Origin: a virus
Lineage: Duplodnaviria; Heunggongvirae; Uroviricota; Caudoviricetes
Length of the DNA: 64,000 bases
IMG/VR virus record: IMGVR_UViG_3300031420_000496
Span: 5,472 to 69,471 of that record
Reading direction: 5' to 3' (one strand)
The notes under the pieces are model-generated. The model saw only the letters and a program-made list of their open reading frames with translations. It was not told where the DNA came from and made no database searches. This document shows, one piece after another, positions 1 through 43,562 of the stretch (positions within the stretch are counted from its first letter, which is position 1; each line of letters begins with the position of its first letter). Both the position numbers and the translations under genes were made by a program.

Positions 1-102
1 GACCGCGATGGAGGTAGAACAATCAAGACGGCAAGAGCTGACTCTGAAGACCAGATGCGGGACCTTGATGAAAATCAATGTGAACAAAAAACGTAATCGA
101 CG

Positions 103-178
103 TTAGACCCGGGGATCGAACCCACTCTCCCACGTCTCAGGTGGGCGCATCAACCAGAGATGCTTTGGCCTCCAATTG
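103..178 (-). tRNA. tRNA-like gene (D-arm and anticodon arm with GAG loop visible; T-stem/acceptor imperfect)
   Basis: GGATCGAACCC T-loop complement; could not close acceptor stem cleanly. Confidence 0.4.
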
Positions 179-213
179 GCGGAGGATAATCAATTACAGC
201 CGGTTCACAAACT

Positions 214-2701: not shown

Positions 2702-3237
2702 TTAGGCTTCTTTATGGTTGTTGAAGAAAGGGCAGAACATTTGTTGCTGTTTGGACAGCGAAGAGATTGTACCTTGTTTTTGAAAAACGTACAAACTATT
2801 TTTGAATTCAGTGCGCGAAGATTTTTCCGTAATCGACACGACTTCCTCAGATTTCTGCTGAGACCGCATACTCCGATTTGCTTCTCGTACAAACCAGATC
2901 AAACACCGAAGAGGTTTTCCCGTTATGGAACTAAATCGCACTACCCCCAGGGGCAGGTGGAGTGAACCTCTCAACACCGCCGATTTCTCGCAGATCAGCC
3001 ACTCGCGTCTCTATTACGATCGAGAAGACCGGTCACACTCCTCAGTGACCTAGGGAACCATAAATTCGATGTGAACCAAGAACCGAGGAATTGATTCACA
3101 AGCTAGAGTCCGGAGAGGACATACCTGGCGAACGTTTCCAATTCAGCTCCCCGCTCTGCGTACGCAGTGGAAACGGTGTGCACTCCCTCATACGAGCCGT
3201 GGCCTTCGGATGCTCGTAATCAACGGGTTGCTCTTTC

Positions 3238-3323
3238 TGGTGGGTCGTCTTGGAGTCGAACCAAGTATGCCAGAGGCGGCGGATTTACAGTCCGCTGCAG
3301 TCGCCAGTGCTGCTCACGACCCA
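3238..3323 (-). tRNA. tRNA-Tyr (GUA), class II
   Basis: acceptor GGGUCGU/ACGACCC, loop CUGUAAA, long variable arm, CCA encoded. Confidence 0.8.
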
Positions 3324-3329
3324 GTGTAA

Positions 3330-3419
3330 TGGCGGAGGATAATGGAATCGAACCATCGCCTGGGAACACCAAGCGGGCGACCTTTCGAGAGTCGTTAATG
3401 CCCAGCATACCTATCCTCC
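3330..3419 (-). tRNA. tRNA-Ser (CGA), class II
   Basis: acceptor GGAGGAU/AUCCUCC, loop CUCGAAA, long variable arm. Confidence 0.75.
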
Positions 3420-3496
3420 AAATTCGTTGCCAGCTTCCACGCATTTAACAGTATCGTGAGGGGCTTACCTGACAGGCCACAACATTTGCTACAACT

Positions 3497-3586
3497 TGGC
3501 GGAGAACTACGGACTCGAACCGTACCCGACCGAAGCCAGGCGATCCGCTTAGCAGGCGGTCCTATTCCCTGAATAGTTAATTCTCC
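3497..3586 (-). tRNA. tRNA-Ser (GCU), class II
   Basis: acceptor GGAGAAU/GUUCUCC, loop CUGCUAA, long variable arm, CCA encoded. Confidence 0.7.
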
Positions 3587-3596
3587 ATGTTCTTCA

Positions 3597-3763
3597 TTTG
3601 TCGTGCTGGATTCGAACCAGCGTTTCTCTATGCGGATTTACGGTCACCATGCCGGTTGATCGAGTGTGGGTTGCATGCGACCCGATGGGATCATTAACCG
3701 TGAGCTGAATTGAACAGTCTACCTACCCTGCTAGAGCGTGATGGGCCACTACACTAACAACAA
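3597..3763 (-). tRNA. elongated tRNA-like gene (~167 nt) with large internal insertion
   Basis: acceptor UUGUUGU/ACGACAA pairs, D-arm UAGUGUAGUGG, T-arm GCUGG UUCGAAU CCAGC; about 90 nt extra between D-arm and T-arm. Confidence 0.45.
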
Positions 3764-3766
3764 ATT

Positions 3767-3840
3767 TGGTTGCGGTCGCTGGAATCGAACCAGTCTTTCG
3801 GATTATGAGCCCGATGTGCCACCACTTACACTACCCCGCG
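3767..3840 (-). tRNA. tRNA (anticodon loop CUCAUAA, CAU) with imperfect acceptor stem
   Basis: CCA encoded, T-arm CUGG/CCAG, anticodon stem UCGGG/UCCGA. Confidence 0.55.
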
Positions 3841-3848
3841 ATTGATCT

Positions 3849-4193
3849 TTAAACCTTTTCATTGCTCAACACTTTCGCCATCTTGCGTTGCTGCTTCTGA
3901 TTCGGCGGATTACCCGTTCCCAAATCATCATGCGTCAGCAATGCTATCAGGTCGATGTACGTTGGGTCTCGTCCTGATCGGCGATACAATACGCTGATGT
4001 CGTTCGTCAAGTGAGCATGGATTAACCCAGTCTCGCCCAAGTCGCCACCAGCAAAGTGCTGGTCCTTCTTTCCAAATCTTGCCATAGGATCGTTCGTCTT
4101 GAACTGAATGAATTCAGCAAGTTTATTTGCGATACCTTTGTGCTTCGCCAGCGTCTGATTGAACAGCTGACTACGTCGAAATTCTACTTTCAC
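3849..4193 (-). CDS. RelE/YafQ-family mRNA interferase toxin (GTG start)
   Basis: motif IHAHLTNDISVLYR and C-terminal ALLTHDDL resemble YafQ/RelE; start GTG overlaps upstream stop in GTGA. Confidence 0.6.
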   Translation of the reverse strand: MKVEFRRSQLFNQTLAKHKGIANKLAEFIQFKTNDPMARFGKKDQHFAGGDLGETGLIHAHLTNDISVLYRRSGRDPTYIDLIALLTHDDLGTGNPPNQKQQRKMAKVLSNEKV

Positions 4194-4369
4194 AGAAGAC
4201 CTTCCTGCGCCAACTGCATCAGAAGAGTCGCACCATCAACCGGCGCCGACAAGTCTTCTTCTTTGACTTGCACAGCTTCGAAAAGCACTTCTTTGTCCAG
4301 GCCACTGTCATCTGCTTCGATAGCTTCGCGCAGTGCGACTTCAGCGATCAGAGTAGTTTTGTTAGCCAT
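4194..4369 (-). CDS. putative antitoxin (58-aa acidic protein)
   Basis: small acidic ORF MANKTTLIAEVALREAIEADDSG.. immediately upstream, stop/start overlap GTGA with toxin; below 60-aa ORF cutoff. Confidence 0.45.
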
Positions 4370-4580
4370 GGTGTACCTCGTTGTCTGTCAATGAAAGCAT
4401 TATAACACGTCCTCACATTTTGTGTAGACTATTTATGCTGTCATTTGAACTTGCAAGAAAAGGGATGGTCGCTACGCCATCATCTGTTTAATGCGCCGGT
4501 GCACCGGGAACAGTCCATCCGTCAATCGTGTCCGAATCCCATGCCTGAGACCTTGCTTTCCACGACGCCTCTTCTTAACT

Positions 4581-4654
4581 TGGTGCCCCACGACAGAATC
4601 GAACTGACGTTTGAAGGTTACAAAGCTCCTGTTCTACCATTGAACTAGTGGGGC
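4581..4654 (-). tRNA. tRNA (loop UUUGUAA, UGU; Thr-like)
   Basis: acceptor GCCCCAC/GUGGGGC, CCA encoded. Confidence 0.7.
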
Positions 4655-4660
4655 GAAACT

Positions 4661-4736
4661 TGGTGCCGGTTGCAGGACTCGAACCCGCCACCCCATGATT
4701 ACAAATCAAGTGCTCTACCAGATGAGCTAAACCGGC
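4661..4736 (-). tRNA. tRNA (loop UUUGUAA, UGU)
   Basis: acceptor GCCGGUU/AACCGGC, D-arm GCUCAUCUGGUAGAGC, CCA encoded. Confidence 0.7.
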
Positions 4737-4743
4737 AAAATCT

Positions 4744-5025
4744 TTACGGTGCTTGTTCGTTGTTGCTTGGAGAGTTCTTGCCGATGTGATAACCATCGCA
4801 TCGCCAGCACTTCCATTTACCGAACGCGTTACCCGTTTTCTTTTCCATCGCTGCCGCAGCTTTCACTGCACTAGCTCTGGTATTGTACATTATTTTTGGC
4901 TGGCCGTCAGATCGTTCGTGTGTTCGTGGATGCCAGAAGCAACCGAACCCGCCTTTCCGTACGTTCCGCCACATGCGGCTTAAAGGCAGTTGATCCTTGA
5001 AGCCGAGATAGATGTTGCGTAGCTT
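4744..5025 (-). CDS. small hypothetical protein with C-terminal CxxC..H motif
   Basis: ORF MKLRNIYLGF..KCWRCDGYHIGKN between tRNAs; the longer 171-aa track ORF runs through tRNA genes. Confidence 0.35.
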   Translation of the reverse strand, partial: KLRNIYLGFKDQLPLSRMWRNVRKGGFGCFWHPRTHERSDGQPKIMYNTRASAVKAAAAMEKKTGNAFGKWKCWRCDGYHIGKNSPSNNEQAP

Positions 5026-5048
5026 CATAACAACTCCCAATAAAAACT

Positions 5049-5123
5049 TGGGCCTAAGGGCTGGATTCGAACCAGCGCACAGCTCCCATAACGGAGCCTG
5101 CTCTACCGCTGAGCTACCTCGGG
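5049..5123 (-). tRNA. tRNA with apparent 6-nt anticodon loop (GUUAUG; UAU-like)
   Basis: good acceptor/D/T arms; anticodon stem GCUCC/GGAGC leaves only 6 loop nt. Confidence 0.55.
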
Positions 5124-5133
5124 CATTGAAACT

Positions 5134-5224
5134 TGGTGGGGATAGTGGGATTCGAACCCACAATACGCTTTCGCGGCTCCACGGTCTGAACGTGGCGACT
5201 TTACCAGAATTTGCCCATATCCCC
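5134..5224 (-). tRNA. tRNA-Leu (CAG), class II
   Basis: acceptor GGGGAUA/UAUCCCC, loop UUCAGAC, long variable arm, CCA encoded. Confidence 0.75.
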
Positions 5225-5231
5225 GTATTTT

Positions 5232-5321
5232 TGGCGGAAGTAGTGAGATTCGAACTCACGGACCTTTTTACCAGTCACCACCTTTCCAAGATGGCGCGAT
5301 AGACCACTCTGCCATACTTCC
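5232..5321 (-). tRNA. tRNA-Ser (GGA), class II
   Basis: acceptor GGAAGUA/UACUUCC, loop UUGGAAA, long variable arm. Confidence 0.75.
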
Positions 5322-5432
5322 ATATCAAAGCCTACTGAATGAATTCACTTGACCACGAATGGGCGAGGTCACGCTGCAGGCGTTGAATTCTTGCCGTCTT
5401 TCGACGCAACCACTATTCAGTGGGCTTTGATA

Positions 5433-5518
5433 TGGAGCGGGTAACAGGATTCGAACCTGCGTAAACTATTCGCCTCTTGATTGGAAGTCAAGTGCTCTAC
5501 CATCTGAGCTATACCCGC
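5433..5518 (-). tRNA. tRNA-Gly(UCC)-like with ~15-nt extended variable region
   Basis: acceptor GCGGGUA/UACCCGC, loop CUUCCAA, extra GGCGAAUAGUUUACGC before T-arm. Confidence 0.6.
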
Positions 5519-5581
5519 ATCGGAACCTTTTTGAAAGCGCTCGTGTTCAGGAGCGAGCTTGCAGCACGCTGCAAGCGGGTT

Positions 5582-5718
5582 TGGTGTAGAGGGTAGGATT
5601 CGAACCTACGACATACTGCTTGGATAACTATTCACATTCGGTTGACGTTTGTCAACAAGTTGCGCAAACAGGTGTCTTTCGACGAGGCGGTCGCTCTGCC
5701 AGACTGAGCTACCTCTAC
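5582..5718 (-). tRNA. elongated tRNA-like gene (~137 nt) with internal insertion carrying GUUGAC-AAAC-GUCAAC hairpin
   Basis: perfect acceptor GUAGAGG/CCUCUAC, canonical D-arm GCUCAGUCUGGCAGAGC and T-arm GUAGG UUCGAAU CCUAC; about 56 nt extra. Confidence 0.5.
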
Positions 5719-5726
5719 ATTAAAAC

Positions 5727-5801
5727 TGGAGCAGGTGAAGGGATTCGAACCCTCGACATTTTCGTTGGCAACGAAAGACTCTACCGCTGAGCTACACCTG
5801 C
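5727..5801 (-). tRNA. tRNA-Gly (GCC)
   Basis: acceptor GCAGGUG/CACCUGC, loop UUGCCAA, CCA encoded. Confidence 0.8.
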
Positions 5802-5879
5802 ATAGTTGCCACCCGGCAATACCCGTTAAGAGACGACGCGTCATCTCATGTGGACTTACTCATTCGCAGTGCCCATTGT

Positions 5880-5953
5880 CTGGGTGGCTGGATTTGAACC
5901 AGCGCCCTCCTCGTTCCAAACAAGGCCGTCTACCAGACTGACATTACACCCAG
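5880..5953 (-). tRNA. tRNA-Pro (UGG), CCA not encoded
   Basis: acceptor CUGGGUG/CACCCAG, loop UUUGGAA. Confidence 0.7.
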
Positions 5954-6010
5954 ACAATGGGCACTGCATAATTATATGACAACAAAAGAGTTTGCATCGG
6001 AGATTTTTCC

Positions 6011-6036
6011 GAGATAACCAATGCATGTCGGTTGTC
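6011..6036. repeat. copy of recurrent hairpin motif GATAACCAAT-N10-CGGTTGTC (spacer copy)
   Basis: inverted repeat GATAACC/GGTTGTC; same motif found inside several tRNA-like genes. Confidence 0.5.
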
Positions 6037-6041
6037 AAACT

Positions 6042-6116
6042 TGGAGTCGCGTGAGGGAATCGAACCCCCGAACATCGGATTTGCAATCCGTGACCTTACC
6101 ACTGGGCTAACGCGAC
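6042..6116 (-). tRNA. tRNA-Cys (GCA)
   Basis: acceptor GUCGCGU/ACGCGAC, loop UUGCAAA, CCA encoded. Confidence 0.75.
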
Positions 6117-6306
6117 ATTGTTCGTTTGTTCATGTTGTCTCAATCAGATTCTCCTGAGTACGAGGAGTATATGCGACGGCTACCAACCTATGCATTTCCC
6201 ATTGTACCGCACTAGTCCTCTGTTGAACAGTCAAGGCGTCGGAAGCATAACCGGACTGATGGCAGTTACACGTACTCGCACATGAACAAGTTCTTACACC
6301 ATATTC

Positions 6307-6393
6307 TGGTGCGGATGATGGGACTCGAACCCACACGCCCTTTCGGGCATTAGGCCCTCAACCTAACGCGTCTACCAGTTCCGCCACAACCGC
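6307..6393 (-). tRNA. tRNA-Leu (GAG), class II
   Basis: E. coli Leu-like D-arm UGGCGGAACUGGUAGACGCG, loop UUGAGGG, long variable arm, CCA encoded. Confidence 0.75.
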
Positions 6394-6846
6394 TTTGGTT
6401 CTGAACTTGCCCTTCGAAAAGGTATGTGTCTGCGTATGGCAGTTTGGACATAGCAATCTGAGGTTGGATTGCGCGTTGTTCGTTTTATCACCGTCGATAT
6501 GATCTACCTGCAAAACTAGCTTCTTGCCGTTCCACATGGGCGGCTGTTTGCATTCGGAACACTCGTCGGTCCATAATCCTGCTTTCAACATTTTCTTCTT
6601 GATGGCAGCGCCAGTCATGAAGTGTTCGTTGCTGAAAATCTTTTCAAGTGGAATCTCCCACTTTGGATTTGGCTTCTTCGTACCTTTCAAACCTTGATTC
6701 GGTGCGTACAAGCCAAACTCTTTACAACGTCGCTTGAACGTCATAAAGGATAATCCTATCACATCTGAAGCAGCTTTCGCAGAATTACTTTGCGTTAAAG
6801 CCCATTCAATTTGTTCTTTCGTTACTTCAATTTTATTTCTTGCCAT
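6358..6846 (-). CDS. HNH homing endonuclease
   Basis: VDHIDGDKTNN..LRLLCPNCH motif; RBS GAGGAG before ATG at 6846; 3' end overlaps tRNA-Leu by ~36 nt. Confidence 0.85.
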   Translation of the reverse strand: MARNKIEVTKEQIEWALTQSNSAKAASDVIGLSFMTFKRRCKEFGLYAPNQGLKGTKKPNPKWEIPLEKIFSNEHFMTGAAIKKKMLKAGLWTDECSECKQPPMWNGKKLVLQVDHIDGDKTNNAQSNLRLLCPNCHTQTHTFSKGKFRTKAVVAELVDALG

Positions 6847-6898
6847 TTGATAGACGCTCCTCAAAGAGGGTATTTATACGTCTATCAACGCGAATTCT

Positions 6899-6974
6899 TG
6901 GTGGCGAGGGGTGGATTTGAACCACCGTACCTCCGTCGCAATGACGGCCGCTCTAATCGCTGAGCTACCTCGCC
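6899..6974 (-). tRNA. tRNA (loop AUUGCGA, UGC; Ala-like anticodon but no G3:U70)
   Basis: acceptor GGCGAGG/CCUCGCC, CCA encoded. Confidence 0.7.
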
Positions 6975-6979
6975 TAAGT

Positions 6980-7054
6980 TGGTCGGAGTGGGGTGAATCG
7001 AACACCCGAGTTTCTGGTCCCAAACCAGACGACCTACCACTGGACTACACTCCG
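6980..7054 (-). tRNA. tRNA-Pro(UGG)-like, paralog A
   Basis: loop UUUGGGA; near-identical to 7423-7497 with compensatory stem changes. Confidence 0.7.
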
Positions 7055-7335
7055 ATTCTATCTTTGTAGCCCGGCGAATCTTGGAAGATTCCGTCGAGCC
7101 ACCATTCTGGAAAATTTCCATCAGCATACAGTTCCTTGACAAACAAGGTGCCGAGTGCAATGTCTTCTTTCCAGGATGTCACTGTCATGTTCAAGTAACC
7201 TTTGCCGATGAGGTATCCGTTTTTCGGATTCACTCTCGTGCCATAAGATTCGCTGTTGAACATTTCGAGTAATGCTTCATCGCTGAAGTCTAACCCTGTC
7301 CAATGTCGAGCGAAGTATTTGTATAACTCCGCCAT
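7045..7335 (-). CDS. hypothetical protein (flanked by paralogous tRNAs)
   Basis: ORF MAELYKYFARHWTGLDF..; 3' end overlaps tRNA by ~10 nt. Confidence 0.45.
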   Translation of the reverse strand: MAELYKYFARHWTGLDFSDEALLEMFNSESYGTRVNPKNGYLIGKGYLNMTVTSWKEDIALGTLFVKELYADGNFPEWWLDGIFQDSPGYKDRIGV

Positions 7336-7422
7336 CCGTTTGAATTTCTTACTGACGCCGTTTACAGACGTACGTGGTTGACCCTTGTTGCGTTTAGCGA
7401 TGTCATAGCATCCTCCATAAAT

Positions 7423-7497
7423 TGGTCGGAGTGGCAGGAATCGAACCTGCGAGTTCATGGTCCCAAACCATGCGACCTACCACTGGACTACACTCCG
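7423..7497 (-). tRNA. tRNA-Pro(UGG)-like, paralog B
   Basis: anticodon stem CAUGG/CCAUG and T-stem GCAGG/CCUGC differ from paralog A by compensatory pairs. Confidence 0.7.
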
Positions 7498-7564
7498 ATA
7501 AAACAGAAACTGTCATTCAAAATAGCAACAAAAGTAGCTATCGGGAATTGTGCCCTTGACCACT

Positions 7565-7660
7565 GCACATTAAGGGAATCGAACCCTCTCGGTTTTTCAT
7601 CATAGTAAAAGTAGATAACCAATAAGCAAGCGGTTACTATTTTGGATGACAGCTTCACAA
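7565..7660 (-). other. tRNA-like remnant containing hairpin motif copy (T-arm present, acceptor not closable)
   Basis: GGGAATCGAACCC T-loop complement plus AGATAACCAATAAGCAAGCGGTTAC. Confidence 0.3.
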
Positions 7661-7666
7661 TAAACT

Positions 7667-7787
7667 TGGCTGAGGTCGTCCGGACTCGAACCGGATCTTC
7701 GCCTTTATGAGTGGATAACCAATCACAGGGCGGTTCATTGCTGAACAAAAATGCGCGATCGATGTTTTTCGCGTGCTAACCCTTACA
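7667..7787 (-). tRNA. elongated tRNA-like gene (~120 nt; CAU-type anticodon loop CUCAUAA) with ~45-nt insertion carrying hairpin motif
   Basis: acceptor UGAGGUG/GACCUCA (6/7), D-arm GUGUAAGGGUUAGCAC, T-arm UCCGG UUCGAGU CCGGA; insertion homologous to that in 9123-9262. Confidence 0.5.
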
Positions 7788-7957
7788 CTACACCTCAATT
7801 GTCGAACTCTAGCAGTTCGTAATGGATCACTATCCATCGCTGATGCTTGCTACCACAACCTTCCTCCTTGCACCGCTTTCGCGGTGGGCAGTCATGCGTG
7901 GCTTCATTTCAAGCGTGCCGCATTAAGTACGGCCGAGCATTCTTAAAAACACTTAGT

Positions 7958-8028
7958 AGCGGGTACACGATTCGAACGTGTGATGGCGAAGGCTTATGAG
8001 ACCCTGCTGGTGACCAGGCCCTACCCGC
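7958..8028 (-). tRNA. short tRNA-like gene (loop CUCAUAA, CAU)
   Basis: acceptor GCGGGUA/UACCCGC, T-arm ACACG UUCGAAU CGUGU; atypical D-region. Confidence 0.45.
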
Positions 8029-8093
8029 AACTAAGTATTCTCAAAGCTTGTCGAAGAGCAAGCATTATACACTGTTCTTCGACAAGCTGAATT

Positions 8094-8549
8094 TTATTTT
8101 TGAATCAAACGTCTGCTTAACTGACTATGGCAGTTCGGGCACAAGAACCGCAAGTTCTCAGCACGATCGTCCAGCCAATCTTCATTGATGTGATCGACGT
8201 CAAGCGTCAGTGGATGACCGTGCCATTCAGGCAGTTGTCCGCATTTCTCACACTCATGTTTCCTACCAATTTCCAACAAACTTCTGACAAGCTGTTCTGC
8301 TTTTGCTCGACCGCCGCTTTCTCGCTTCACAAGAATGTCTGCAGCATATTTTCGTTTGTGGCTAATCTTACCAGATGATGAAGACTTACCGAGCATGTGA
8401 CTCATGTCGAGACCGAGGTTTTTAGCACGACGCGTATAGTGGCCGTGCGATCCGCCTGCTTCTTTGATGCCGAGCTTGCGAAGCACTTCGCGGAACGTCG
8501 TGCTCGCTGCTACTGCTTCAGTCAGCATTTCATCGGTTATATTCTTCAT
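8094..8549 (-). CDS. HNH homing endonuclease
   Basis: LTLDVDHINEDWLDDR..LRFLCPNCH motif; start MKNITDEML. Confidence 0.85.
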   Translation of the reverse strand: MKNITDEMLTEAVAASTTFREVLRKLGIKEAGGSHGHYTRRAKNLGLDMSHMLGKSSSSGKISHKRKYAADILVKRESGGRAKAEQLVRSLLEIGRKHECEKCGQLPEWHGHPLTLDVDHINEDWLDDRAENLRFLCPNCHSQLSRRLIQK

Positions 8550-8561
8550 ATCACTTTTGTT

Positions 8562-8644
8562 TGGTGCGCCAGGTGGGACTCGAACCCACAAGGTTACTCG
8601 CTCTAAACGAGTCAGTTGTACCAATTCACATTATCTACTGGCGC
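8562..8644 (-). tRNA. tRNA (loop UUUAGAG, UAG; Leu-like anticodon) with enlarged D-region
   Basis: acceptor GCGCCAG/CUGGCGC, T-arm GUGGG UUCGAGU CCCAC, CCA encoded. Confidence 0.6.
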
Positions 8645-8649
8645 ATTGT

Positions 8650-8728
8650 TGGTACCCACGGCCGGAGTCGAACCGGCAGAATCACGATGTTTTGAGCATC
8701 GCCGCTTTGCCAAATTGCGTACGTGGGC
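8650..8728 (-). tRNA. class I tRNA with anticodon CAA (loop CUCAAAA)
   Basis: clean cloverleaf GCCCACG..CGUGGGU, short variable loop; Leu anticodon on a non-Leu-type body. Confidence 0.65.
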
Positions 8729-8839
8729 ATTGTTAAAAAGAGTGTTCGACTGGGTAACAAAATGTCCAGCTCACCAACACTCGAAAAAGAGAGGAACAAA
8801 AAGCGTCAATCGGTAATGTCCTCTGAGAGGCAACCGTTT

Positions 8840-8990
8840 TCACGGTCTGAGCGGATTCGACACCCTCTAACTGACCGAAGCCAGTATTTCACCTGATAAC
8901 CAATTAACAACGGTTCCATCATTTGAGGTCTCTGCTTCAACACCCAGTGTCTTAGGGTGAAGTCGTGTATAACTACTTTTCCAGCAGTCT
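8840..8990 (-). other. structured tRNA-like element with hairpin motif copy (not a clean tRNA)
   Basis: TGATAACCAATTAACAACGGTTCC motif plus GGATTCGAC T-loop-like segment. Confidence 0.3.
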
Positions 8991-9040
8991 ACCGGTATTT
9001 CGCCACAGCGGATGACTAGTCCGTCAAAGACCTTAAATGA

Positions 9041-9114
9041 TGGAGCGGGTATGGGGAATCGAACCCCAGTCTTAAGCTTGGAAGGCTTCAGCTCTACCAT
9101 TGAGCTATACCCGC
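9041..9114 (-). tRNA. tRNA-Gly (UCC)
   Basis: very similar to E. coli tRNA-Gly2 (..CCUUCCAAGC..), CCA encoded. Confidence 0.8.
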
Positions 9115-9122
9115 AAGAATTC

Positions 9123-9262
9123 TGGTGGAGTTGGGTAGGATTCGAACCTACCTAAGCCAGAGGCGCGCCATTTACAGTGGATAACCAATTAGCGAGCGGT
9201 TGTAGAAACAACAAAGATTTGCAATCGATGTTTACGTGGGTTTTCCAATTCCCTACAACTCC
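9123..9262 (-). tRNA. elongated Tyr-like tRNA (~140 nt; loop CUGUAAA, GUA) with ~60-nt insertion carrying hairpin motif
   Basis: acceptor GGAGUUG/CAACUCC, D-arm GGGAAUUGGAAAACCC, Tyr-like variable arm CGCCUCUGGC, T-arm GUAGG UUCGAAU CCUAC. Confidence 0.5.
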
Positions 9263-9449
9263 ATAGTGGTCAATAGCTATTAGAGGTGACCACGTCTCTA
9301 ATACGGTACTCGGTCAAGCGGAAATCGACGAGCCATCCAGGGATTTTTTAATCCGGCCTAAACTGGCACCCTGCGTTTGATCGCTGTACACGCACGTCCT
9401 TCACAATCGAATTACGATCGTCTTTTGTCCATAACGTATACAGCAAACT

Positions 9450-9524
9450 TGGTGGAGGATAACGGGATCGAACCGTTGACCTGATGCTTGCAAAGCACCC
9501 GCTCTCCCAGCTGAGCTAATCCCC
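9450..9524 (-). tRNA. tRNA-Ala (UGC)
   Basis: close to E. coli tRNA-Ala (GGGG.U.UAGCUCAGCUGGGAGAGC), G3:U70, loop UUUGCAA. Confidence 0.8.
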
Positions 9525-9532
9525 CAAATTCG

Positions 9533-9781
9533 TTACCGCTGTTGAAAACAGCGATAGATAAACGTTACCATTTCACGTTCGAGTTCTGCATCGGACAGAC
9601 TGTCGATGTAGTCGTTCGTGAGATGTGCAAAACGCCCTGGGCGTTTGCCTGTGGCAAAATCTGATTGACGACTTTGCGATCCATGTGTCATGATCGGTCG
9701 CGGAGTATCTTCACTGGTACCGAACTCCGCGTCGAAGCGTAACTTCTTGAACAGCGTTTTTGCGTCCATCACATTCTCCAA
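9533..9781 (-). CDS. hypothetical small protein inside tRNA island
   Basis: 82-aa ORF between two tRNAs; no recognisable domain. Confidence 0.3.
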   Translation of the reverse strand: MENVMDAKTLFKKLRFDAEFGTSEDTPRPIMTHGSQSRQSDFATGKRPGRFAHLTNDYIDSLSDAELEREMVTFIYRCFQQR

Positions 9782-9791
9782 AATATAAACT

Positions 9792-9883
9792 TGGCGGAGG
9801 ATAAAGGAATCGAACCCTCACCGAGGGTTGGCCCCAGTGGGACGGATTTCAAGTCCGCGTCTGCACCTTGCAGCCTATCCTCC
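9792..9883 (-). tRNA. tRNA-Ser (UGA), class II
   Basis: acceptor GGAGGAU/AUCCUCC, loop CUUGAAA, long variable arm. Confidence 0.7.
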
Positions 9884-9980
9884 ATATCTGTCACAGCACT
9901 CCGACGACTAACTCGTATTTTTTCAACGTTCTTCATCGTGCTGTGTCTGGCCACGTATTGCTACGTAGCTTCGCGAATTC

Positions 9981-10054
9981 TGGTACCCACGAGTGGAATC
10001 GGACCACTGTATCTGCAATGTCAATGCAGCGCTCTGCCATTGAGCTACGCGGGC
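9981..10054 (-). tRNA. tRNA-Val (GAC)
   Basis: acceptor GCCCGCG/CGUGGGU, loop UUGACAU, CCA encoded. Confidence 0.8.
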
Positions 10055-10059
10055 AAATC

Positions 10060-10125
10060 TGGTGGAGCGTAGGGGACTCGAACCCCTCCTACCGCAGTGC
10101 AAGTGCAGCGCCTACCCCTGTAAAC
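10060..10125 (-). other. truncated tRNA-like element (T-arm and CCA present, 5' half too short)
   Basis: GGGGUUCGAGUCCCC T-arm and encoded CCA but only ~60 nt. Confidence 0.3.
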
Positions 10126-10241
10126 ACCCCATAATCAAAGCGCACTCAAGTGTGCTGCTTACACTAAACTCATTGAGTTCCCTTTGTCCACGCGATTCGG
10201 GTCGTCCTGATGGACGGGACTACAAGAGTACGCTTTGATTA

Positions 10242-10324
10242 TGGTGCACGCCACTGGAATCGAACCAGTTCAGCCAAAGGCCACTGCTTTACAGGCAGCT
10301 TATCTCTCCAAGGATAGGACGTAC
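10242..10324 (-). tRNA. tRNA-Tyr(GUA)-like
   Basis: acceptor GUACGUC/GGCGUGC with two G-U pairs, loop CUGUAAA, 13-nt variable arm. Confidence 0.6.
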
Positions 10325-10332
10325 AAAATGTG

Positions 10333-10557: not shown

Positions 10558-10784
10558 AATATTCTCCAGTTGATGAGAGAATTATACATCACAACGAATT
10601 TAAAGCACACTGTTAAAAGCGTCGCAGCTTTATCTGTCCGTCTCACACCGGCCGATTTACTCGGCCATGTTTACCATTCCAGTGTACCAAATCAATATGC
10701 ACTGTGCGAGAAAGGAGTTGAACCTTTCATGCGCTAATGTATAGCTGTTCTTACCACTTGAACTATCGACAGTGCATATTGATT

Positions 10785-11892: not shown

Positions 11893-11894
11893 GA

Positions 11895-16815: not shown

Positions 16816-17176
16816 AAATTCTTGCGATCAGGTTGAAAATCGAAATGCCGAGTCTCACGTTCGCCTTCGATGCTCGTGCTTCAGCGCGAAGTTCTGCTCG
16901 CTCTGCTCTGGCTTCTCGCCGAGCTTGAGCAGGCGTAAGTCCGCTGTTGATCAACTGTTGCACTCGCACTTCATGGTCCACGTCATCCTCCGTTAAGTTC
17001 AGTGACGGCCGGAGCTAATCCCGGCATGTGATACTTTATCAGGAATCCCGCATCTCACTTTCATGAGGCAGCTTCGGACGCCAAGGAAGAGTTGTATGCG
17101 TCCACCCTTATGAACCGCTTCTCCGGTCTGTATCACAACCACAAGTTTCGCGTATTAGCTTACGCATTCGTCACAT

Positions 17177-17295
17177 AACTGGATATTGGATTCGAACCAA
17201 TGACGCTAACCGTAGGGAACATTCACACGAGAATGCTGTATCGGTTTCGGTATCACGTGCCGCTGCACGCCGCTCTCCCACTGAGCTAATCCAGT
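17177..17295 (-). tRNA. elongated tRNA-like gene (~119 nt), CCA not encoded
   Basis: perfect acceptor ACUGGAU/AUCCAGU, universal D-arm AGCUCAGUGGGAGAGC, T-arm AUUGG UUCGAAU CCAAU; about 45 nt extra in anticodon/variable region. Confidence 0.5.
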
Positions 17296-17327
17296 TATGT
17301 GGAACCTCTTGCGAGGTCCAGGCCGCG

Positions 17328-42131: not shown

Positions 42132-43562
42132 TCATTTTTCTTGTTCGAGGTACAGGTTGCTGATGGCCTTGAACTGGTGCGAACCGTCCATTGCTTTGAA
42201 CACCAGGCCTTCACGCACGTTGTTGTTCATGCTTGGGCCAATGGCGAACTGCAGCAGTTCGTCCATGTTCTTGATGCCCAGTTCTTCGAGCGTGACGCCA
42301 AAGTGCAGGGTCGGAACATGCTCGATCACGACGTTGATGTTCTCGACGCGGGCAATGCTGTTCATCTTTGCCACCAGCGACTTGCGCTCGCGCGGAGTCA
42401 TGAACTCGCCTTTGTCGATGTCGAAGATGTTGTAGACGAAGAAGCGATTGGTCTTGAAACCTTCGCGGTTGCCTTGGATACCAGGACCCATCAGCTCGCC
42501 TTGAAGTGCGATGTCTTGACCGACGCTTCGCAGCACTTGCAGAATACCGCTGTTCGCCATCTGCACGAAGGCGTTGTCGTCGTTGCCTTCCATCTTCAGA
42601 TCGAGGTTACGCGAGCACACGCCTTCCAGCGGTTCGCCGCCGGCACCGTAACGATACACGGTCATCGAACTGCCGTCCATTTTCAGCGTGACTTCGTAAC
42701 GAGTGTCGCGGCTTGCTTGCGGCGGACGGACGAACTGCAGTACATCGCCGGTCATGCGCATACGACCAGCAGCGATTGCGGCGTCCTTGTCTTCTTGCGA
42801 CATTGCAGCGACGGCTTCTGCCGGAACCGGCGAGAAGGTTTCATCGTAGCCGAAGATTTGCGAGCCCATGTTCTGGCAACGTTCTTGGTCCGACTTGCGG
42901 AGGAACGTTGGGAAGTTACCCTTCGCCATGCCAGCCAGTTGTGCGTTGACAGGCTTGTCCCACTTCATGATGCCGAGCAGGCCAGTGAAGTTGATGTCGC
43001 GAATTTTTTCGACTTCGCTTTTCCCGATTCCCAGGCCGATCAGATGATCGATGATTTCCGGGAACGCATCGAGCGGAAGTGCGAGGCCTTGCGACAGCTG
43101 CTTGCGCAGGCGAATCGTTTTCAGTCGTGCACCTGGAATGTCGTTCCAGTTGATGGCGTTCTTTTCGAGGAACTTGAAACGTTCGTCCGACATTGGCAGG
43201 TACGAGTCGACCTCGAAGAAGACGCACAGGTCGCCAACTTTGAACTCGCCGGCTTTTACGACGACTGGCCAGCCTTCGACCATTGCTTTCTTGATCAGGT
43301 CGGCGCCAGGAATATCTTCGATCGAAGTGATTTGACGAACAGTCACCAGCTTGCGGCCGTCTGCCACAGCTTCGTCGACGAGTTGTTGGCGACGCAGCAC
43401 TTCAGCTTGTTCGGCTGCAGTTGCATCAGCTTCAAGATATGCCTGCATTTCTTCTTCGTTGGTAACGACAATGCCGTCTTTCAGAGCTTCAGCTTTCCAG
43501 CCGCCTTGTGCGATTTCTTGTGTTGGTTGTCCCATGGTATTTCCTTTAAAGTGGTTCGCCAA
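42132..43562 (-). CDS. ATP-dependent RNA-ligase-like nucleotidyltransferase with ~290-aa N-terminal extension
   Basis: ligase motif I KMDGS (VTLKMDGSSMTVY) and downstream GELMGPGIQGN. Confidence 0.55.
   Translation of the reverse strand: MANHFKGNTMGQPTQEIAQGGWKAEALKDGIVVTNEEEMQAYLEADATAAEQAEVLRRQQLVDEAVADGRKLVTVRQITSIEDIPGADLIKKAMVEGWPVVVKAGEFKVGDLCVFFEVDSYLPMSDERFKFLEKNAINWNDIPGARLKTIRLRKQLSQGLALPLDAFPEIIDHLIGLGIGKSEVEKIRDINFTGLLGIMKWDKPVNAQLAGMAKGNFPTFLRKSDQERCQNMGSQIFGYDETFSPVPAEAVAAMSQEDKDAAIAAGRMRMTGDVLQFVRPPQASRDTRYEVTLKMDGSSMTVYRYGAGGEPLEGVCSRNLDLKMEGNDDNAFVQMANSGILQVLRSVGQDIALQGELMGPGIQGNREGFKTNRFFVYNIFDIDKGEFMTPRERKSLVAKMNSIARVENINVVIEHVPTLHFGVTLEELGIKNMDELLQFAIGPSMNNNVREGLVFKAMDGSHQFKAISNLYLEQEK

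What the first reader, a model, noticed from the sequence alone, without database searches (positions are those of the whole stretch)
3597..9262. Family of elongated tRNA-like genes with a homologous insertion between the D-arm and anticodon arm
Several units have perfect acceptor stems, canonical D- and T-arms and encoded CCA but are 119-167 nt long: 3597-3763, 5582-5718, 7667-7787, 9123-9262, and 17177-17295 outside the island. The insertions in the Met-like (7667-7787) and Tyr-like (9123-9262) units are clearly homologous (AAACAUCGAU.GC…UUUGUU…AACCGC…AUUGGUUAUCCA) despite different tRNA bodies. They are too short for group I introns and not at the canonical 37/38 intron site. Candidate explanations are a new class of tRNA intervening sequences, tRNA-sRNA fusions, or tRNA mimics used as decoys for anticodon nucleases.
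Basis: seen in the sequence. Interest (0 to 1): 0.7.

Follow-up and report, generated by a model that had tools for sequence, protein, structure and literature searches.

The report
Rod-shaped mini-introns in phage tRNAs
Three transfer-RNA genes of this uncultivated giant bacteriophage are interrupted by an undescribed hairpin-shaped insert of 54-60 bases, which also occurs "inside-out" as stand-alone genes between tRNAs, suggesting an unknown way of cutting and rejoining RNA in bacterial viruses.

Summary
All features lie on the minus strand, in a tRNA island of a jumbo phage.

- **Shared insert:** Three of the five flagged units share one 54-60 nt module. They are Tyr 9262-9123, Met 7797-7667 and Gly 5718-5582.
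- **Structure:** The module is a rod of two helices, X and Z, both strongly supported by covariation. Its invariant words are UUGUU, AACCG and UUAUC.
- **Position:** It sits inside the 5' strand of the anticodon stem (after nt 28) or, in the Gly gene, inside the anticodon loop. Deleting it up to ...GGUUAU restores canonical tRNAs of 86, 76 and 77 nt.
- **Permuted copies:** Four further copies in the window (6037-5977, 7656-7506, 8917-8793, 209-79) are circularly permuted. Helix X is open, and the exon side is closed by a small loop or a tRNA-like domain with a T-arm. They are packed head-to-tail with tRNAs.
- **Other two units:** 3764-3596 and 17296-17176 are different tRNA-like RNAs without the module and without CCA.
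- **Distribution:** Dozens of copies occur in related contigs, many from 315-377 kb contigs. None was found in Rfam, in the bacterial-genome scan for the intron-type pattern, in cultured phages or in the nearest cultured relative.
- **Best reading (about 0.55):** a new class of spliced tRNA intron. The nuclease is unknown. A nick-sealing RNA ligase encoded in the window is a candidate for the joining step.

Splicing itself is inferred, not shown.

The parts
9123..9262 (-). Interrupted tRNA-Tyr(GUA) gene, 140 nt, CCA encoded. Exon 1 is 9262-9235 and exon 2 is 9180-9123.
   Evidence: Not found by ARAGORN or Rfam when unspliced. After removing 9234-9181, ARAGORN gives an 86-nt class-II tRNA-Tyr with a perfect anticodon stem CGCCA/UGGCG.
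9181..9234 (-). Type A module (intron-like insert), 54 nt. In order: UAAACA, UCGAU (Z 3' strand), J2, UUUGUUGU, loop UUCU, ACAACCG, J1, AUUGG (Z 5' strand), UUAU. It lies between tRNA nt 28 and 29.
   Evidence: Covariance model R1 scores 52.0 bits at 9180-9234. Pattern hit. Helices supported by covariation.
7667..7797 (-). Interrupted tRNA-Met(CAU)-like gene, 131 nt, CCA encoded. Exon 1 is 7797-7770 and exon 2 is 7714-7667.
   Evidence: Of 48 trial splice combinations, only removal of 7769-7715 gives a tRNA in ARAGORN: a 76-nt tRNA-Met. The closest scaffolds in related contigs carry the module at the same place (after nt 28) with anticodons CAU, CUU, UGC and GUU; L070 has it after nt 27.
7715..7769 (-). 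Type A module, 55 nt. Helix X is GUUCA-GCAA-UGAAC. Helix Z is UCGAU+CGCG paired with UGUG+AUUGG.
   Evidence: R1 scores 54.7 bits at 7714-7768.
5582..5718 (-). Interrupted tRNA-Gly(CCC) gene, 137 nt, CCA encoded. Exon 1 is 5718-5684 and exon 2 is 5623-5582.
   Evidence: Rfam tRNA 50.2 bits with a large insertion. ARAGORN with the intron option places a 60-nt insert in the anticodon loop. The spliced form is a 77-nt tRNA-Gly.
5624..5683 (-). Divergent type A module, 60 nt, inside the anticodon (between nt 34 and 35). Helix Z is CUGUU/AAUAG, with two compensatory pair changes relative to the consensus YCGAU/AUUGG.
   Evidence: R1 scores 44.0 bits at 5623-5677 although this copy was not in the training set. 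Orthologues in L267 and L316 are 88-90% identical.
5977..6037 (-). Type B (circularly permuted) module, small form. In order: X-R UGACAAC, CG, J1, AUUGG, UUAUC, a 12-nt remainder of the loop (17 nt between the Z strands), CCGAU, J2, UUUUGUUGUCA. Helix X starts 4 nt after the CCA of tRNA-Cys.
7506..7656 (-). Type B module, large form. Helix X is extended (12 bp plus an outer stem). The enclosed domain has a T-arm (AGGG-UUCGAUU-CCCU) followed by a D-arm-like hairpin (GUGC-AGUGGUCAAGG-GCAC). It follows the interrupted tRNA-Met directly.
   Evidence: The T and D arms were identified by inspection.
8793..8917 (-). Type B module, large form, with an 81-nt multi-hairpin enclosed domain.
   Evidence: The single-sequence minimum-free-energy fold recovers the X-Z rod.
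79..209 (-). Type B module, large form. The variant AUUGA/UCGAU is a compensated G-C to A-U change. The enclosed domain has four hairpins. Helix X starts 5 nt after tRNA-Pro.
   Evidence: The minimum-free-energy fold recovers X and Z. Orthologues in L316 and L260.
3596..3764 (-). Not a member of the family. A tRNA-like gene with no CCA. Its closing stem (CUCUA/UAGAG) encloses about 100 nt of structured sequence that includes a T-loop-like hairpin.
   Evidence: No R1 hit. ARAGORN -i calls a 94-nt 'intron'. Orthologues exist in L316, L267 and L260. The stem covaries, and L260 lacks a 47-nt sub-hairpin.
17176..17296 (-). Not a member of the family. A tRNA-like gene with no CCA. The anticodon arm is replaced by a tetraloop hairpin CGUGC-AGCG-GCACG, followed by a long extra arm.
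   Evidence: No R1 hit. Sequence read. ARAGORN -i forces an 'Arg(GCG)' call.
42132..43562 (-). RNA ligase. A candidate, by inference only, for sealing the nick left in the anticodon stem.
   Evidence: Pfam PHA02142 OB domain plus RNA_ligase. Homologue of the Naegleria gruberi ligase NgrRnl, E=5e-74. From my own knowledge, NgrRnl is a nick-sealing ligase of the Rnl5 type that needs 3'-OH and 5'-phosphate ends.
3849..4193 (-). ORF inside the island with a RelE/YafQ/YoeB-like fold, which is an endoribonuclease fold. A 59-aa ORF (4190-4369) overlaps it upstream. Listed only as a weak candidate nuclease or toxin-antitoxin pair; no link to the module has been shown.
   Evidence: AlphaFold2 model from a single sequence, pLDDT 74. 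Foldseek top hits are YafQ, YoeB and RelE, E about 1e-4. Conserved in L267, L316, L260 and L271. No Pfam or NCBIfam hit.

Best explanation
The module is a new kind of short tRNA intervening sequence, carried by a clade of uncultivated jumbo phages.

**How it is proposed to work**
1. The module is transcribed as part of the tRNA precursor and folds into a rod. The rod consists of helix X, a conserved internal loop (..UU/CG..), and helix Z. The exons hang off the base of Z.
2. The conserved 3' tail UUAU|C marks the 3' cut, 15-17 nt from the AACCG anchor in the consensus copies (18 nt in the window's divergent Gly copy).
3. The 5' cut lies where the tRNA helix or loop ends, 5-17 nt before Z.
4. 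After excision the two exon ends sit next to each other as a nick in the anticodon stem, or as a break in the anticodon loop in the Gly type. A phage RNA ligase then joins them. The NgrRnl-like nick-sealing ligase at 42132-43562 is the candidate.

**Permuted copies**
The permuted copies are the same fold with helix X open and the exon side closed. The same machinery would treat them either as stable small RNAs sitting in tRNA slots or as natural permuted intron-exon units.

**Shown versus inferred**
- Shown: the fold, the insertion sites, the restoration of tRNAs on deletion, the conservation, the permutation and the distribution.
- Inferred: transcription, excision, the identity of the nuclease (protein or the RNA itself), ligation by this ligase, and the fate of the permuted copies.
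For: 1. **Real, strand-specific RNA structure.**
   - 96% of cells are paired across 59 copies, against 76% in shuffles. There are 156 double-change cells against 45. Sliding the partner columns gives 13-48% paired.
   - The same holds for 40 distinct natural intron-type copies.
   - The part of Z that my selection did not require pairs in an instance-specific way: mean 2.49 contiguous pairs, against 0.90 when partners are swapped (maximum 1.44 in 2000 permutations).
   - G.U pairs dominate two Z positions. The structure therefore exists only on the tRNA-sense strand.
2. **Deletion restores tRNAs.** Deleting the insert up to GGUUAU restores canonical tRNAs of 86, 76 and 77 nt. For Met, only one of 48 trial boundary combinations works.
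3. **One module, several positions, many tRNAs.** In relatives the same module splits tRNAs read as Tyr, Met, Lys, Ala, Asn, Val, Glu, Gly and Pro, plus others of uncertain identity. It lies after nt 27, 28 or 29, or within the anticodon loop. The Gly type splits the anticodon, so that tRNA cannot decode unless it is spliced.
4. **The host tRNAs are under selection.**
   - Acceptor and T stems differ between orthologues by compensatory changes: window UGAGGU/ACCUCA and UCCGG/CCGGA, against L273 GGUGAU/AUCACC and UUACG/CGUAA.
   - Pairs 27-43 and 28-42 covary across the split (window CG..CG, L311 CC..GG, L125 UCG..CGA).
5. **Not a known class.** There is no Rfam family hit at E<=1.
6. **A suitable ligase is present.** A nick-sealing-type RNA ligase is encoded in the window.
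Against: - There is no expression or junction data, so splicing is not demonstrated.
- No endonuclease has been identified. About 64 ORFs were scanned.
- No polynucleotide kinase motif was found in the window.
- The 3' boundary is not uniform. The Asn tRNAs in L062 and L290 need a cut after UUAUC rather than UUAU.
- Some restored tRNAs are imperfect. Examples are A31.A39 in Met, a C.A pair in Gly, and an 8-nt loop in L258.
- The small permuted copies enclose only 10-33 nt between UUAU and YCGAU (10-15 nt in about half of them), so splicing gives them no obvious product.
- RNA ligases of this kind are common in large phages, where they serve tRNA repair, so the presence of one here is weak evidence.
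Confidence: 0.55

Rival explanations
1. The rod is retained as a handle. It would be a permanent protein-binding arm on tRNA-shaped scaffold RNAs. This is the logic of bacterial Y RNAs such as YrlA, where a tRNA-like domain is tethered to a protein-binding stem. The units would then act as decoys, tethers or sponges rather than as decoding tRNAs.
For: - 25 of 38 permuted copies enclose a T-arm-like hairpin, and some also a D-arm-like one. They have no free CCA end (inspection). That is the YrlA architecture (PMC4201824; bioRxiv 10.1101/312249).
- The copies occupy tRNA slots in the array, as the stable RNAs rnaC and rnaD do in the T4 tRNA cluster.
- About 15 invariant unpaired or helix-end nucleotides would suit a specific protein site.
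Against: - No TROVE/Rsr gene was found among the scanned ORFs.
- The YrlA motif GNCGAAN0-1G is absent, and the Rfam YrlA model does not hit any element. Its only hit is a sub-threshold one spanning two adjacent tRNAs.
- This reading does not explain why the flanks of the insert always rebuild a 7-nt anticodon loop and a 5-bp stem.
- It does not explain why anticodons diversify on a single scaffold, or why the Gly type splits the anticodon.
Confidence: 0.2
2. The module is a new small self-cleaving ribozyme or processing signal that makes one cut at UUAU|C. It would serve to dice the polycistronic tRNA transcript. Inside tRNAs, that single cut plus 3' trimming and ligation would amount to splicing.
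For: - Natural circular permutation is typical of small self-cleaving ribozymes such as hammerhead types I-III and twister P1/P3/P5 (own knowledge).
- The core has about 15 invariant nucleotides.
- In 15 of 38 permuted copies, helix X starts within 12 nt of a tRNA 3' end. This recalls the theta/HDV-like ribozymes that lie next to phage tRNAs (PMC10879173).
- The 3' boundary is fixed while the 5' boundary is variable.
Against: - No Rfam ribozyme model matches.
- The HDV-like strand order cannot be mapped onto the module.
- The two internal loops are separated by an unbroken 8-10 bp helix, so they could not dock as the loops of the hairpin ribozyme do.
- A U|C cleavage site is not known for any ribozyme class (own knowledge).
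- Activity has not been tested.
Confidence: 0.12
3. The module is a selfish palindromic DNA repeat, like a REP element or MITE, that has spread through the island and broken some tRNA genes. The interrupted genes would then be pseudogenes.
For: - There are many copies per island: 7 in about 10 kb here, and 7 in the 3.5-kb contig L290.
- Three HNH endonuclease genes lie nearby.
Against: - G.U pairs and strand-specific unpaired invariant words show RNA-level selection on the tRNA-sense strand.
- No target-site duplications are present.
- The interrupted tRNAs are conserved between diverged phages with compensatory changes.
- The permuted form is not the reverse-strand reading of the intron form.
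Confidence: 0.05
4. The insert is an intervening sequence excised by host RNase III without religation, as happens in fragmented 23S rRNA. This would leave a functional two-piece tRNA.
For: - The rod is a double-stranded hairpin with internal loops. By my recollection it resembles phage T7 RNase III sites.
- RNase III leaves 3'-OH and 5'-phosphate ends.
Against: - In type A copies the rod has only about 13 bp.
- The strict sequence conservation is unlike RNase III sites (own knowledge).
- The two inferred boundaries are not offset like a 2-nt 3' overhang.
- A break inside the anticodon (Gly type) would not give a working tRNA unless it were ligated.
Confidence: 0.05

Closest known systems
'Enigmatic' tRNA introns of Lak megaphages (Devoto et al. 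2019, PMC6784885)
   Same: - Unclassified inserts in tRNA genes of huge uncultivated phages, including tRNA-Tyr(GUA).
- No Rfam match, and highly conserved between genomes.
- The splicing route is unknown.
- The window's unit 3764-3596 resembles them in kind: a 94-nt insert in the anticodon loop that contains a T-loop-like hairpin.
   Different: - The Lak inserts are 79-93 nt and lie at the canonical anticodon-loop site. They were only listed, with no defined structure.
- They lack the X/Z rod and its words (YCGAU...UUUUGUU...AACCG).
- A partial resemblance (AAUGGUUAU, GUUGGGUAUC) in AT-rich sequence could be chance.
- No permuted free-standing copies were reported.
Archaeal protein-spliced tRNA introns at non-canonical positions, and permuted or split tRNA genes
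   Same: - Short introns at several positions of the tRNA body.
- Exon ends are held together by the mature helix.
- Permuted gene arrangements are processed through the same signal, sometimes giving circular RNAs (own knowledge).
   Different: - There is no bulge-helix-bulge motif at the junctions (inspection).
- The setting is a bacterial virus.
- No EndA-type endonuclease was seen.
- The conserved element is the intron's own rod, not the exon-intron junction.
Group I introns in bacterial and phage tRNA genes, and engineered permuted intron-exon (PIE) constructs
   Same: - They interrupt the anticodon region of bacterial-type tRNAs.
- In PIE constructs the order 3' intron half, exon, 5' intron half gives circular exons. 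That is the topology of the type B copies.
   Different: - The module is 54-60 nt, against 200 nt or more for group I introns.
- There is no Rfam group I hit.
- The insert ends in U, not G.
- It lies in the anticodon stem as well as in the loop.
YrlA / bacterial Y RNAs (PMC4201824)
   Same: A stem carrying the RNA's ends is joined to a tRNA-like domain that has T and D arms and no free CCA. The large type B copies have this layout.
   Different: - No Rsr/TROVE gene was found.
- The Rsr-binding motif is absent.
- The Rfam model does not match.
- YrlA does not interrupt real tRNAs.
Theta (minimal HDV-like) ribozymes next to phage tRNAs (PMC10879173)
   Same: A small conserved RNA that abuts the 3' end of phage tRNAs.
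   Different: - The double-pseudoknot HDV fold cannot be mapped onto the module.
- There is no Rfam HDV hit.
- Theta ribozymes are not found inside tRNAs.
T4 stable RNAs rnaC and rnaD (species 1 and 2) in the T4 tRNA cluster
   Same: Non-tRNA small RNAs of 119-139 nt, of unknown function, encoded head-to-tail with tRNAs in a phage tRNA array.
   Different: The sequences and folds are unrelated. No module is present.

Membership tests
Group I intron (tRNA-inserted) | Conserved catalytic core detectable with the Rfam Intron_gpI model | tested here: not met
   No hit at gathering threshold or at E<=1 over 3000-18500.
Group I intron (tRNA-inserted) | Length of about 200 nt or more, a 5' exon ending in U and an intron ending in G | tested here: not met
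   The inserts are 54-60 nt. They end in U (GGUUAU). The 5' exon ends in G in Tyr and Met and in C in Gly.
Group I intron (tRNA-inserted) | Self-splicing with a guanosine cofactor | not testable with these tools
   This needs in vitro transcription.
Archaeal/eukaryal protein-spliced (BHB) tRNA intron | Bulge-helix-bulge (3-4-3) motif formed by the 5' exon end and the intron 3' end | tested here: not met
   By inspection of the Tyr unit, the 4 nt before the 5' site (CCCA) cannot pair with the 4 nt before the 3' bulge (GGUU). No 4-bp central helix is present in any of the three window copies.
Archaeal/eukaryal protein-spliced (BHB) tRNA intron | Occurs at varied, non-canonical positions of the tRNA | tested here: met
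   Found after nt 27, 28 or 29, and at 33/34 to 34/35.
Archaeal/eukaryal protein-spliced (BHB) tRNA intron | EndA/Sen-type splicing endonuclease available | tested here: inconclusive
   None was found among about 64 window ORFs scanned with Pfam or NCBIfam. The window covers only about a fifth of a genome of this size.
Known small self-cleaving ribozymes (hammerhead, HDV-like/theta, twister, twister-sister, pistol, hatchet, hairpin) | Match to the family covariance model | tested here: not met
   No such family appears at E<=1 with permissive filters.
Known small self-cleaving ribozymes (hammerhead, HDV-like/theta, twister, twister-sister, pistol, hatchet, hairpin) | HDV-like strand order P1-P2-P3-P1'-P4-P2', with the cleavage site at the 5' end abutting the tRNA | tested here: not met
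   Manual mapping fails. The terminal helix X would have to be P2, but no P1 strand exists upstream. Adjacency to a tRNA 3' end is met for 15 of 38 permuted copies.
YrlA / Y RNA | Rfam YrlA/Y_RNA model match and the motif GNCGAAN0-1G near the 5' end | tested here: not met
   The only hit is sub-threshold (24.7 bits, E=0.16) and spans two neighbouring tRNAs at 5693-5758. The motif is absent (PMC4201824).
YrlA / Y RNA | Adjacent Rsr/Ro60 (TROVE) gene | tested here: not met
   No TROVE domain was found in the scanned ORFs. The rest of the genome was not seen.
YrlA / Y RNA | tRNA-like domain with T and D arms and no free CCA, attached to a terminal stem | tested here: met
   25 of 38 permuted copies have a T-arm-like hairpin. 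D-arm-like hairpins were seen in the 7656-7506 subfamily by inspection.
tRNA (after removal of the insert) | Cloverleaf with a 7-nt anticodon loop, U33, a purine at 37, and a T-arm | tested here: met
   ARAGORN gives Tyr 86 nt, Met 76 nt and Gly 77 nt. Met and Gly each keep one mismatch in the anticodon stem.
Lak-megaphage type tRNA inserts | Insert of 79-93 nt at the canonical anticodon-loop site that encloses a T-arm-like hairpin | tested here: inconclusive
   The module family does not fit this description. Unit 3764-3596 fits in kind, but no sequence homology was established.
REP/MITE-like DNA repeat | Palindrome equally good on both strands, target-site duplication, and decay of interrupted genes | tested here: not met
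   G.U pairs are frequent: 28 of 59 and 46 of 59 at two Z positions. There is no duplication. Exons are conserved with compensatory changes.

The most novel reading that the evidence does not exclude
The rod is itself catalytic, or is the RNA half of a dedicated new RNA-protein enzyme. That would make it the smallest known self-excising tRNA intron. The permuted copies would then be natural permuted intron-exon genes that release circular, acceptor-less tRNA-like RNAs in infected cells.
Probability: 0.12. Interest if true: 0.95.

Novelty: categorically new. Interest (0 to 1): 0.8.

Why it matters
- **A third class of tRNA intron.** To my knowledge, bacteria and their viruses are known to have only group I introns in tRNA genes, and the short protein-spliced kind is confined to archaea and eukaryotes. 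A 55-nt intron with its own conserved fold, sitting in the anticodon stem, would be a third class. It would imply an unknown cut-and-join pathway in phage-infected bacteria.
- **A possible source of circular RNAs.** The permuted copies could be a natural source of circular or unusually stable tRNA-shaped RNAs.
- **Annotation.** Standard tools miss these genes. ARAGORN missed all three in the window, and Rfam found only the Gly copy. The tRNA repertoires of huge phages are therefore under-counted.
- **Experimental tractability.** The family is compact and has clear invariant nucleotides. The question 'ribozyme or protein-recognised?' can be tested directly with a few in vitro transcripts.
- **Phage-host conflict.** The family may also bear on the arms race over tRNAs, for example by protecting tRNA genes or precursors from homing endonucleases or anticodon nucleases. 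This last point is speculation.

Tried and rejected
- **Bulge-helix-bulge motif at the junctions.** Not present (inspection).
- **HDV-like/theta fold.** The strand order cannot be mapped onto the module.
- **Hairpin-ribozyme analogy** (two internal loops in a rod). Rejected, because Z is an unbroken 8-10 bp helix with no hinge.
- **Alternative pairing AACCG/UGGUU.** Perfectly complementary in the consensus, but broken without compensation in the variants ATCGA, AATGA and ATCAG. Those same changes are compensated in helix Z, so Z is the supported helix.
- **YrlA / Ro-binding stem.** The motif and the model do not match, and no TROVE gene was found.
- **Single-sequence folding.** It recovers the rod for the large permuted copies but not reliably for the AU-rich intron copies. 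The structure therefore rests on covariation.
- **ARAGORN as a boundary test.** Too permissive for most copies. It is decisive only for the window's Met unit.
- **BLAST of the module against cultured phages.** Nothing found.
- **Nearest cultured relative.** Ralstonia phage RsoM2USA has 33 tRNAs in a syntenic island but no module.
- **Bacterial genomes.** All 38 pattern hits failed the structural filter.
- **Search for a nuclease or kinase.** Pfam and NCBIfam scans of about 64 ORFs and a Walker-A scan gave only a ligase, a metallophosphoesterase, an RlaP-like nucleotidyltransferase, HNH genes and a RelE-like fold.
- **T4 rnaC and rnaD.** Unrelated sequences. The 5' UUAUCGAU of rnaC is probably chance.

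Full report
**Setting**

ARAGORN and Rfam place some 23-28 tRNA genes on the minus strand between about 200 and 10,900, plus a CUA-anticodon tRNA at 17,857-17,782. The window is phage-like:
- It contains HNH endonuclease genes, DNA and RNA ligases and a clamp loader.
- Its clamp loader is closest to those of jumbo phages: Ralstonia phage RsoM2USA at 43% amino-acid identity, then Xanthomonas XacN1 and Pseudomonas PA5oct.
- At the DNA level nothing in the cultured-phage collection resembles the island beyond single tRNAs.

**What the flagged units are**

I read the minus strand and ran ARAGORN with its intron option. The five units fall into two groups.

- A covariance model built from the family scores them at 52.0, 54.7 and 44.0 bits. 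The Gly copy was not in the training set.
- All three end in an encoded CCA.
- Removing 9234-9181, 7769-7715 and 5683-5624 gives clean cloverleaves: Tyr(GUA) 86 nt, Met(CAU) 76 nt and Gly(CCC) 77 nt.
- For Met, only one of 48 trial boundary combinations is accepted.
- The insert therefore lies inside the 5' strand of the anticodon stem, after nt 28, in Tyr and Met. In Gly it lies inside the anticodon, between nt 34 and 35. It does not lie between the D arm and the anticodon arm.

*Group 2: two units that are different RNAs.* These are 3764-3596 and 17296-17176.
- Neither gives a model hit even at E<=10 with filters off, and neither encodes CCA.
- 3764-3596 has an intact closing stem around about 100 nt of structured sequence that includes a T-loop-like hairpin. 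It is conserved in three related contigs. Its stem covaries (CUCUA/UAGAG, UCCCA/UGGGG, UUCCC/GGGAG). One relative lacks a 47-nt sub-hairpin.
- 17296-17176 has a tetraloop hairpin where the anticodon arm should be.

**Anatomy of the module**

The intron form, which I call type A, reads as follows from 5' to 3':
1. a 5' flank of 5-17 nt, often URAAAAYN;
2. YCGAU;
3. a variable stretch of 3-5 nt;
4. a few unpaired nucleotides followed by UUUU;
5. GUU plus a variable stem, a loop, the matching variable stem plus AAC;
6. CG and a few unpaired nucleotides;
7. a variable stretch of 3-5 nt;
8. AUUGG;
9. UUAU, followed by C.

This gives two helices:
- Helix X is GUU.../...AAC.
- Helix Z is YCGAU plus an extension, paired with the matching extension plus AUUGG.

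The invariant nucleotides are UUGUU, AAC(C)G and UUA(U)C.

**A second, permuted topology**

The same words occur in a second order, which I call type B. It runs: X-R, AACCG, ..., AUUGGUUAUC, an enclosed segment, YCGAU, ..., UUUUGUU, X-L. Helix X now carries the ends of the element, and the side where the exons would be is closed.

The window has four such copies: 6037-5977, 7656-7506, 8917-8793 and 209-79. The enclosed segment is 12 nt beyond UUAUC in the first (17 nt between the two Z strands). In the others it is 69-84 nt.

**Is the structure real?**

- I assembled 59 distinct copies from the window and related contigs. The type B copies were re-permuted in silico with a GAAA loop so that all could be aligned. 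On this set, 96.3% of cells form pairs, against 76.2% in shuffles. 156 cells differ on both sides, against 45. Sliding the partner column by 1-3 positions gives 13-48% paired.
- My selection of copies required X and the Z core to pair, so those numbers are partly built in. The Z extension and the distal part of X were not required. They still covary strongly, with 15-29 double changes per pair.
- Z-extension pairing is instance-specific. The mean is 2.49 contiguous pairs, against 0.90 when partners are swapped between copies (maximum 1.44 in 2000 permutations).
- Every position of the Z core changes in a pair-preserving way: AUUGG/YCGAU, GUUGG/CCGAC, AAUGG/UCGUU, AUCGG/UCGAU, AUUGG/CCAAU, AUCGA/UCGAU and AUCAG/CUGAU.
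- 40 distinct natural type A copies found by the model give the same picture, although that alignment is fitted to the model.
- Two Z positions are mostly G.U. The fold therefore exists only in RNA of the tRNA sense. This argues against a DNA palindrome.
- For the large type B copies, single-sequence folding independently recovers the X-Z rod.

**Distribution**

- Pattern scans followed by structural filtering found the module only in viral and metagenome contigs. Many of these come from contigs of 315-377 kb, including L062, L070, L125, L127, L128, L265, L268 and L282.
- None of the 38 pattern hits in the scan of one genome per bacterial or archaeal species passed the filter.
- BLAST found nothing in cultured phages.
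- The syntenic 33-tRNA island of RsoM2USA has no copy.
- Copy density is high: 7 in about 10 kb here, 7 in the 3.5-kb contig L290, and at least 8 in 13.6 kb of L062.

**Evidence that the type A copies are introns**

In relatives the module splits tRNAs read as Tyr, Met, Lys, Ala, Asn, Val, Glu, Gly and Pro, plus others of uncertain identity.
- *Rebuilt tRNAs.* In almost all cases the sequence after GGUUAU, joined to the sequence before the 5' flank, rebuilds a 5-bp anticodon stem and a 7-nt loop with U33.
- *Position.* The insertion point varies between 27/28, 28/29, 29/30 and the anticodon loop.
- *Covariation across the split.* Pairs that span the two exons covary: window C27-G43/G28-C42, L311 C-G/C-G, L125 U27-A43.
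- *Compensatory change in orthologues.* Orthologous Met-type genes differ in acceptor and T stems by compensatory changes.
- *Anticodon turnover.* The same scaffold carries the anticodons CAU, CUU, UGC and GUU.

These are functional, evolving tRNA genes and not wrecks. From established knowledge of how the ribosome contacts the anticodon stem, a 55-nt arm at nt 28/29 should be incompatible with decoding. In the Gly type the anticodon itself is split.

Exceptions are recorded:
- The Asn genes of L062 and L290 need the cut after UUAUC.
- L258 would have an 8-nt loop.
- L260's Gly copy and L009-5850 are ambiguous, and L127-2675 rebuilds no clean anticodon arm.

**What is not shown**

Nothing here demonstrates transcription, cutting or joining. 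I found no candidate endonuclease with any specificity. The relevant findings are these:
- The window encodes an RNA ligase homologous to Naegleria NgrRnl (E=5e-74). By my recollection of Unciuleac and Shuman's work, this enzyme seals nicks in duplex RNA with 3'-OH and 5'-phosphate ends. That is the substrate left when an insert is removed from one strand of the anticodon stem. Such ligases are also ordinary tRNA-repair enzymes.
- A metallophosphoesterase (44530-45393) and an RlaP-like nucleotidyltransferase (49466-50506) lie nearby.
- No P-loop kinase motif was found.
- Inside the island, ORF 3849-4193 has a RelE/YafQ/YoeB-like fold, and a 59-aa ORF overlaps it upstream. It may simply be a toxin-antitoxin pair.

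**The permuted copies**

- 25 of 38 type B copies enclose a T-arm-like hairpin. 10 are small, with 35 nt or fewer enclosed.
- In one subfamily (7656-7506 and its relatives) the T-arm is followed by a D-arm-like hairpin. This is the order expected if a type A gene were circularly permuted and its acceptor stem deleted. Other large copies (e.g. 209-79, L108) keep the normal D-anticodon-T order.
- In 15 of 38 copies, helix X starts within 12 nt of the 3' end of an upstream tRNA, often within -1 to +8 nt. In 16 of 38, a tRNA starts within 60 nt downstream.
- These copies therefore occupy tRNA slots in the array, as rnaC and rnaD do in the T4 cluster.
- If the same machinery cuts them at UUAU|C and at the other flank, the enclosed domain would be released, and possibly circularised as in engineered permuted intron-exon constructs. 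If not, they are stable rod-plus-tRNA-elbow RNAs with a YrlA-like layout. The small copies remain unexplained under either view.

**Comparison with known systems**

- *Group I introns.* The module is not one: no Rfam match, 54-60 nt, and it ends in U.
- *BHB introns.* It is not one: no bulge-helix-bulge motif.
- *Self-cleaving ribozymes.* It matches none in Rfam, and the HDV-like/theta fold cannot be mapped onto it.
- *YrlA.* It is not a member: the motif, the model and the Rsr gene are all absent.
- *Closest precedent.* This is the report of 'enigmatic introns' in Lak megaphage tRNAs (PMC6784885). Those are 79-93 nt inserts in the anticodon loop, unclassified, with a T-arm-like hairpin. The window's unit 3764-3596 resembles them in kind. 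The module family does not.

**Verdict**

The finding is a real, well-supported new RNA family. It most likely represents a new class of spliced tRNA intron together with circularly permuted stand-alone relatives. My confidence that the family and its fold are real is about 0.95. My confidence that it is spliced is about 0.55. The mechanism is open.

Noticed in passing
window 3849-4369 (-): A two-gene cassette sits inside the tRNA island. It consists of a 59-aa ORF overlapping a 114-aa ORF. The predicted fold of the larger ORF matches YafQ/YoeB/RelE endoribonuclease toxins (Foldseek E about 1e-4, model pLDDT 74). It has no Pfam or NCBIfam hit. It is conserved in four related contigs.
   Followed up: partly
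window 17782-17857 (-): A tRNA with a CUA anticodon. ARAGORN labels it 'Pyl'; Rfam tRNA scores it 60 bits. It is a likely amber suppressor, which raises the question of stop-codon reassignment in this phage.
   Followed up: no
window 6358-6864, 8094-8624 and 43546-44184 (-): Three HNH endonuclease genes. Two lie between tRNA genes and one lies next to the RNA ligase. This recalls the homing endonuclease segB in the T4 tRNA cluster. They could be linked to the spread or protection of interrupted tRNA genes.
   Followed up: partly
window 3596-3764 (-): A tRNA-like gene without CCA. Its 'anticodon loop' holds about 100 nt of structured sequence, including a T-loop-like hairpin and the conserved word GCAUGGUGAC(U/C)GUAAAUCCGCA. 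The L260 orthologue lacks a 47-nt sub-hairpin (CGGUUaauGAUC...GAUCAACCG) whose apical stem differs between W and L316 while still forming a hairpin.
   Followed up: partly
window 17176-17296 (-): A tRNA-like gene with good acceptor, D and T arms. It has a tetraloop hairpin in place of the anticodon arm, a long extra arm and no CCA.
   Followed up: partly
window about 10688-10786 (-): Another odd tRNA-like element. D-, anticodon- and T-arm-like hairpins are closed by a 15-bp terminal stem (AAUCAAUAUGCACUG...CAGUGCAUAUUGAUU) with no CCA. Neither ARAGORN nor Rfam calls it.
   Followed up: no
window 10245-10325 (-): A Tyr-like tRNA (anticodon arm GCUGC-CUGUAAA-GCAGU, CCA encoded). It is found only as a sub-threshold Rfam tRNA-Sec hit (31.6 bits) and is missed by ARAGORN.
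   Followed up: no
window 5049-5123, 5433-5518 and 8562-8644 (-): Further atypical tRNAs. One has a 6-nt anticodon loop (ARAGORN '???'). One is an 86-nt tRNA-Gly(UCC) with about 12 extra nt in the variable region. One is an 83-nt 'Val' with an over-long D region.
   Followed up: no
window 299-2701, 28071-28886 and 35020-36672 (-): Host-like envelope genes in a phage context: UDP-glucose dehydrogenase, an OmpA-like beta-barrel protein, a D-Ala-D-Ala carboxypeptidase and a 550-aa protein with an OmpA domain.
   Followed up: no
Lak phage tRNA introns (PMC6784885, Table S6) versus the module: The Lak Phe and Tyr inserts contain AAUGGUUAU and GUUGGGUAUC upstream of a T-arm-like hairpin. These are the same words as the module's Z strand plus tail. 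This could be distant homology or chance in AT-rich sequence.
   Followed up: no
L318, L299, L254, L249 (type A copies in Met-like tRNAs): In this subgroup the 5' flank carries an extra small hairpin (GGC-loop-GCC; the loop is GAAA in two of the four copies). Helix Z has a tandem G.A/A.G mismatch (CCGAGAGC against GCGAUUGG).
   Followed up: no
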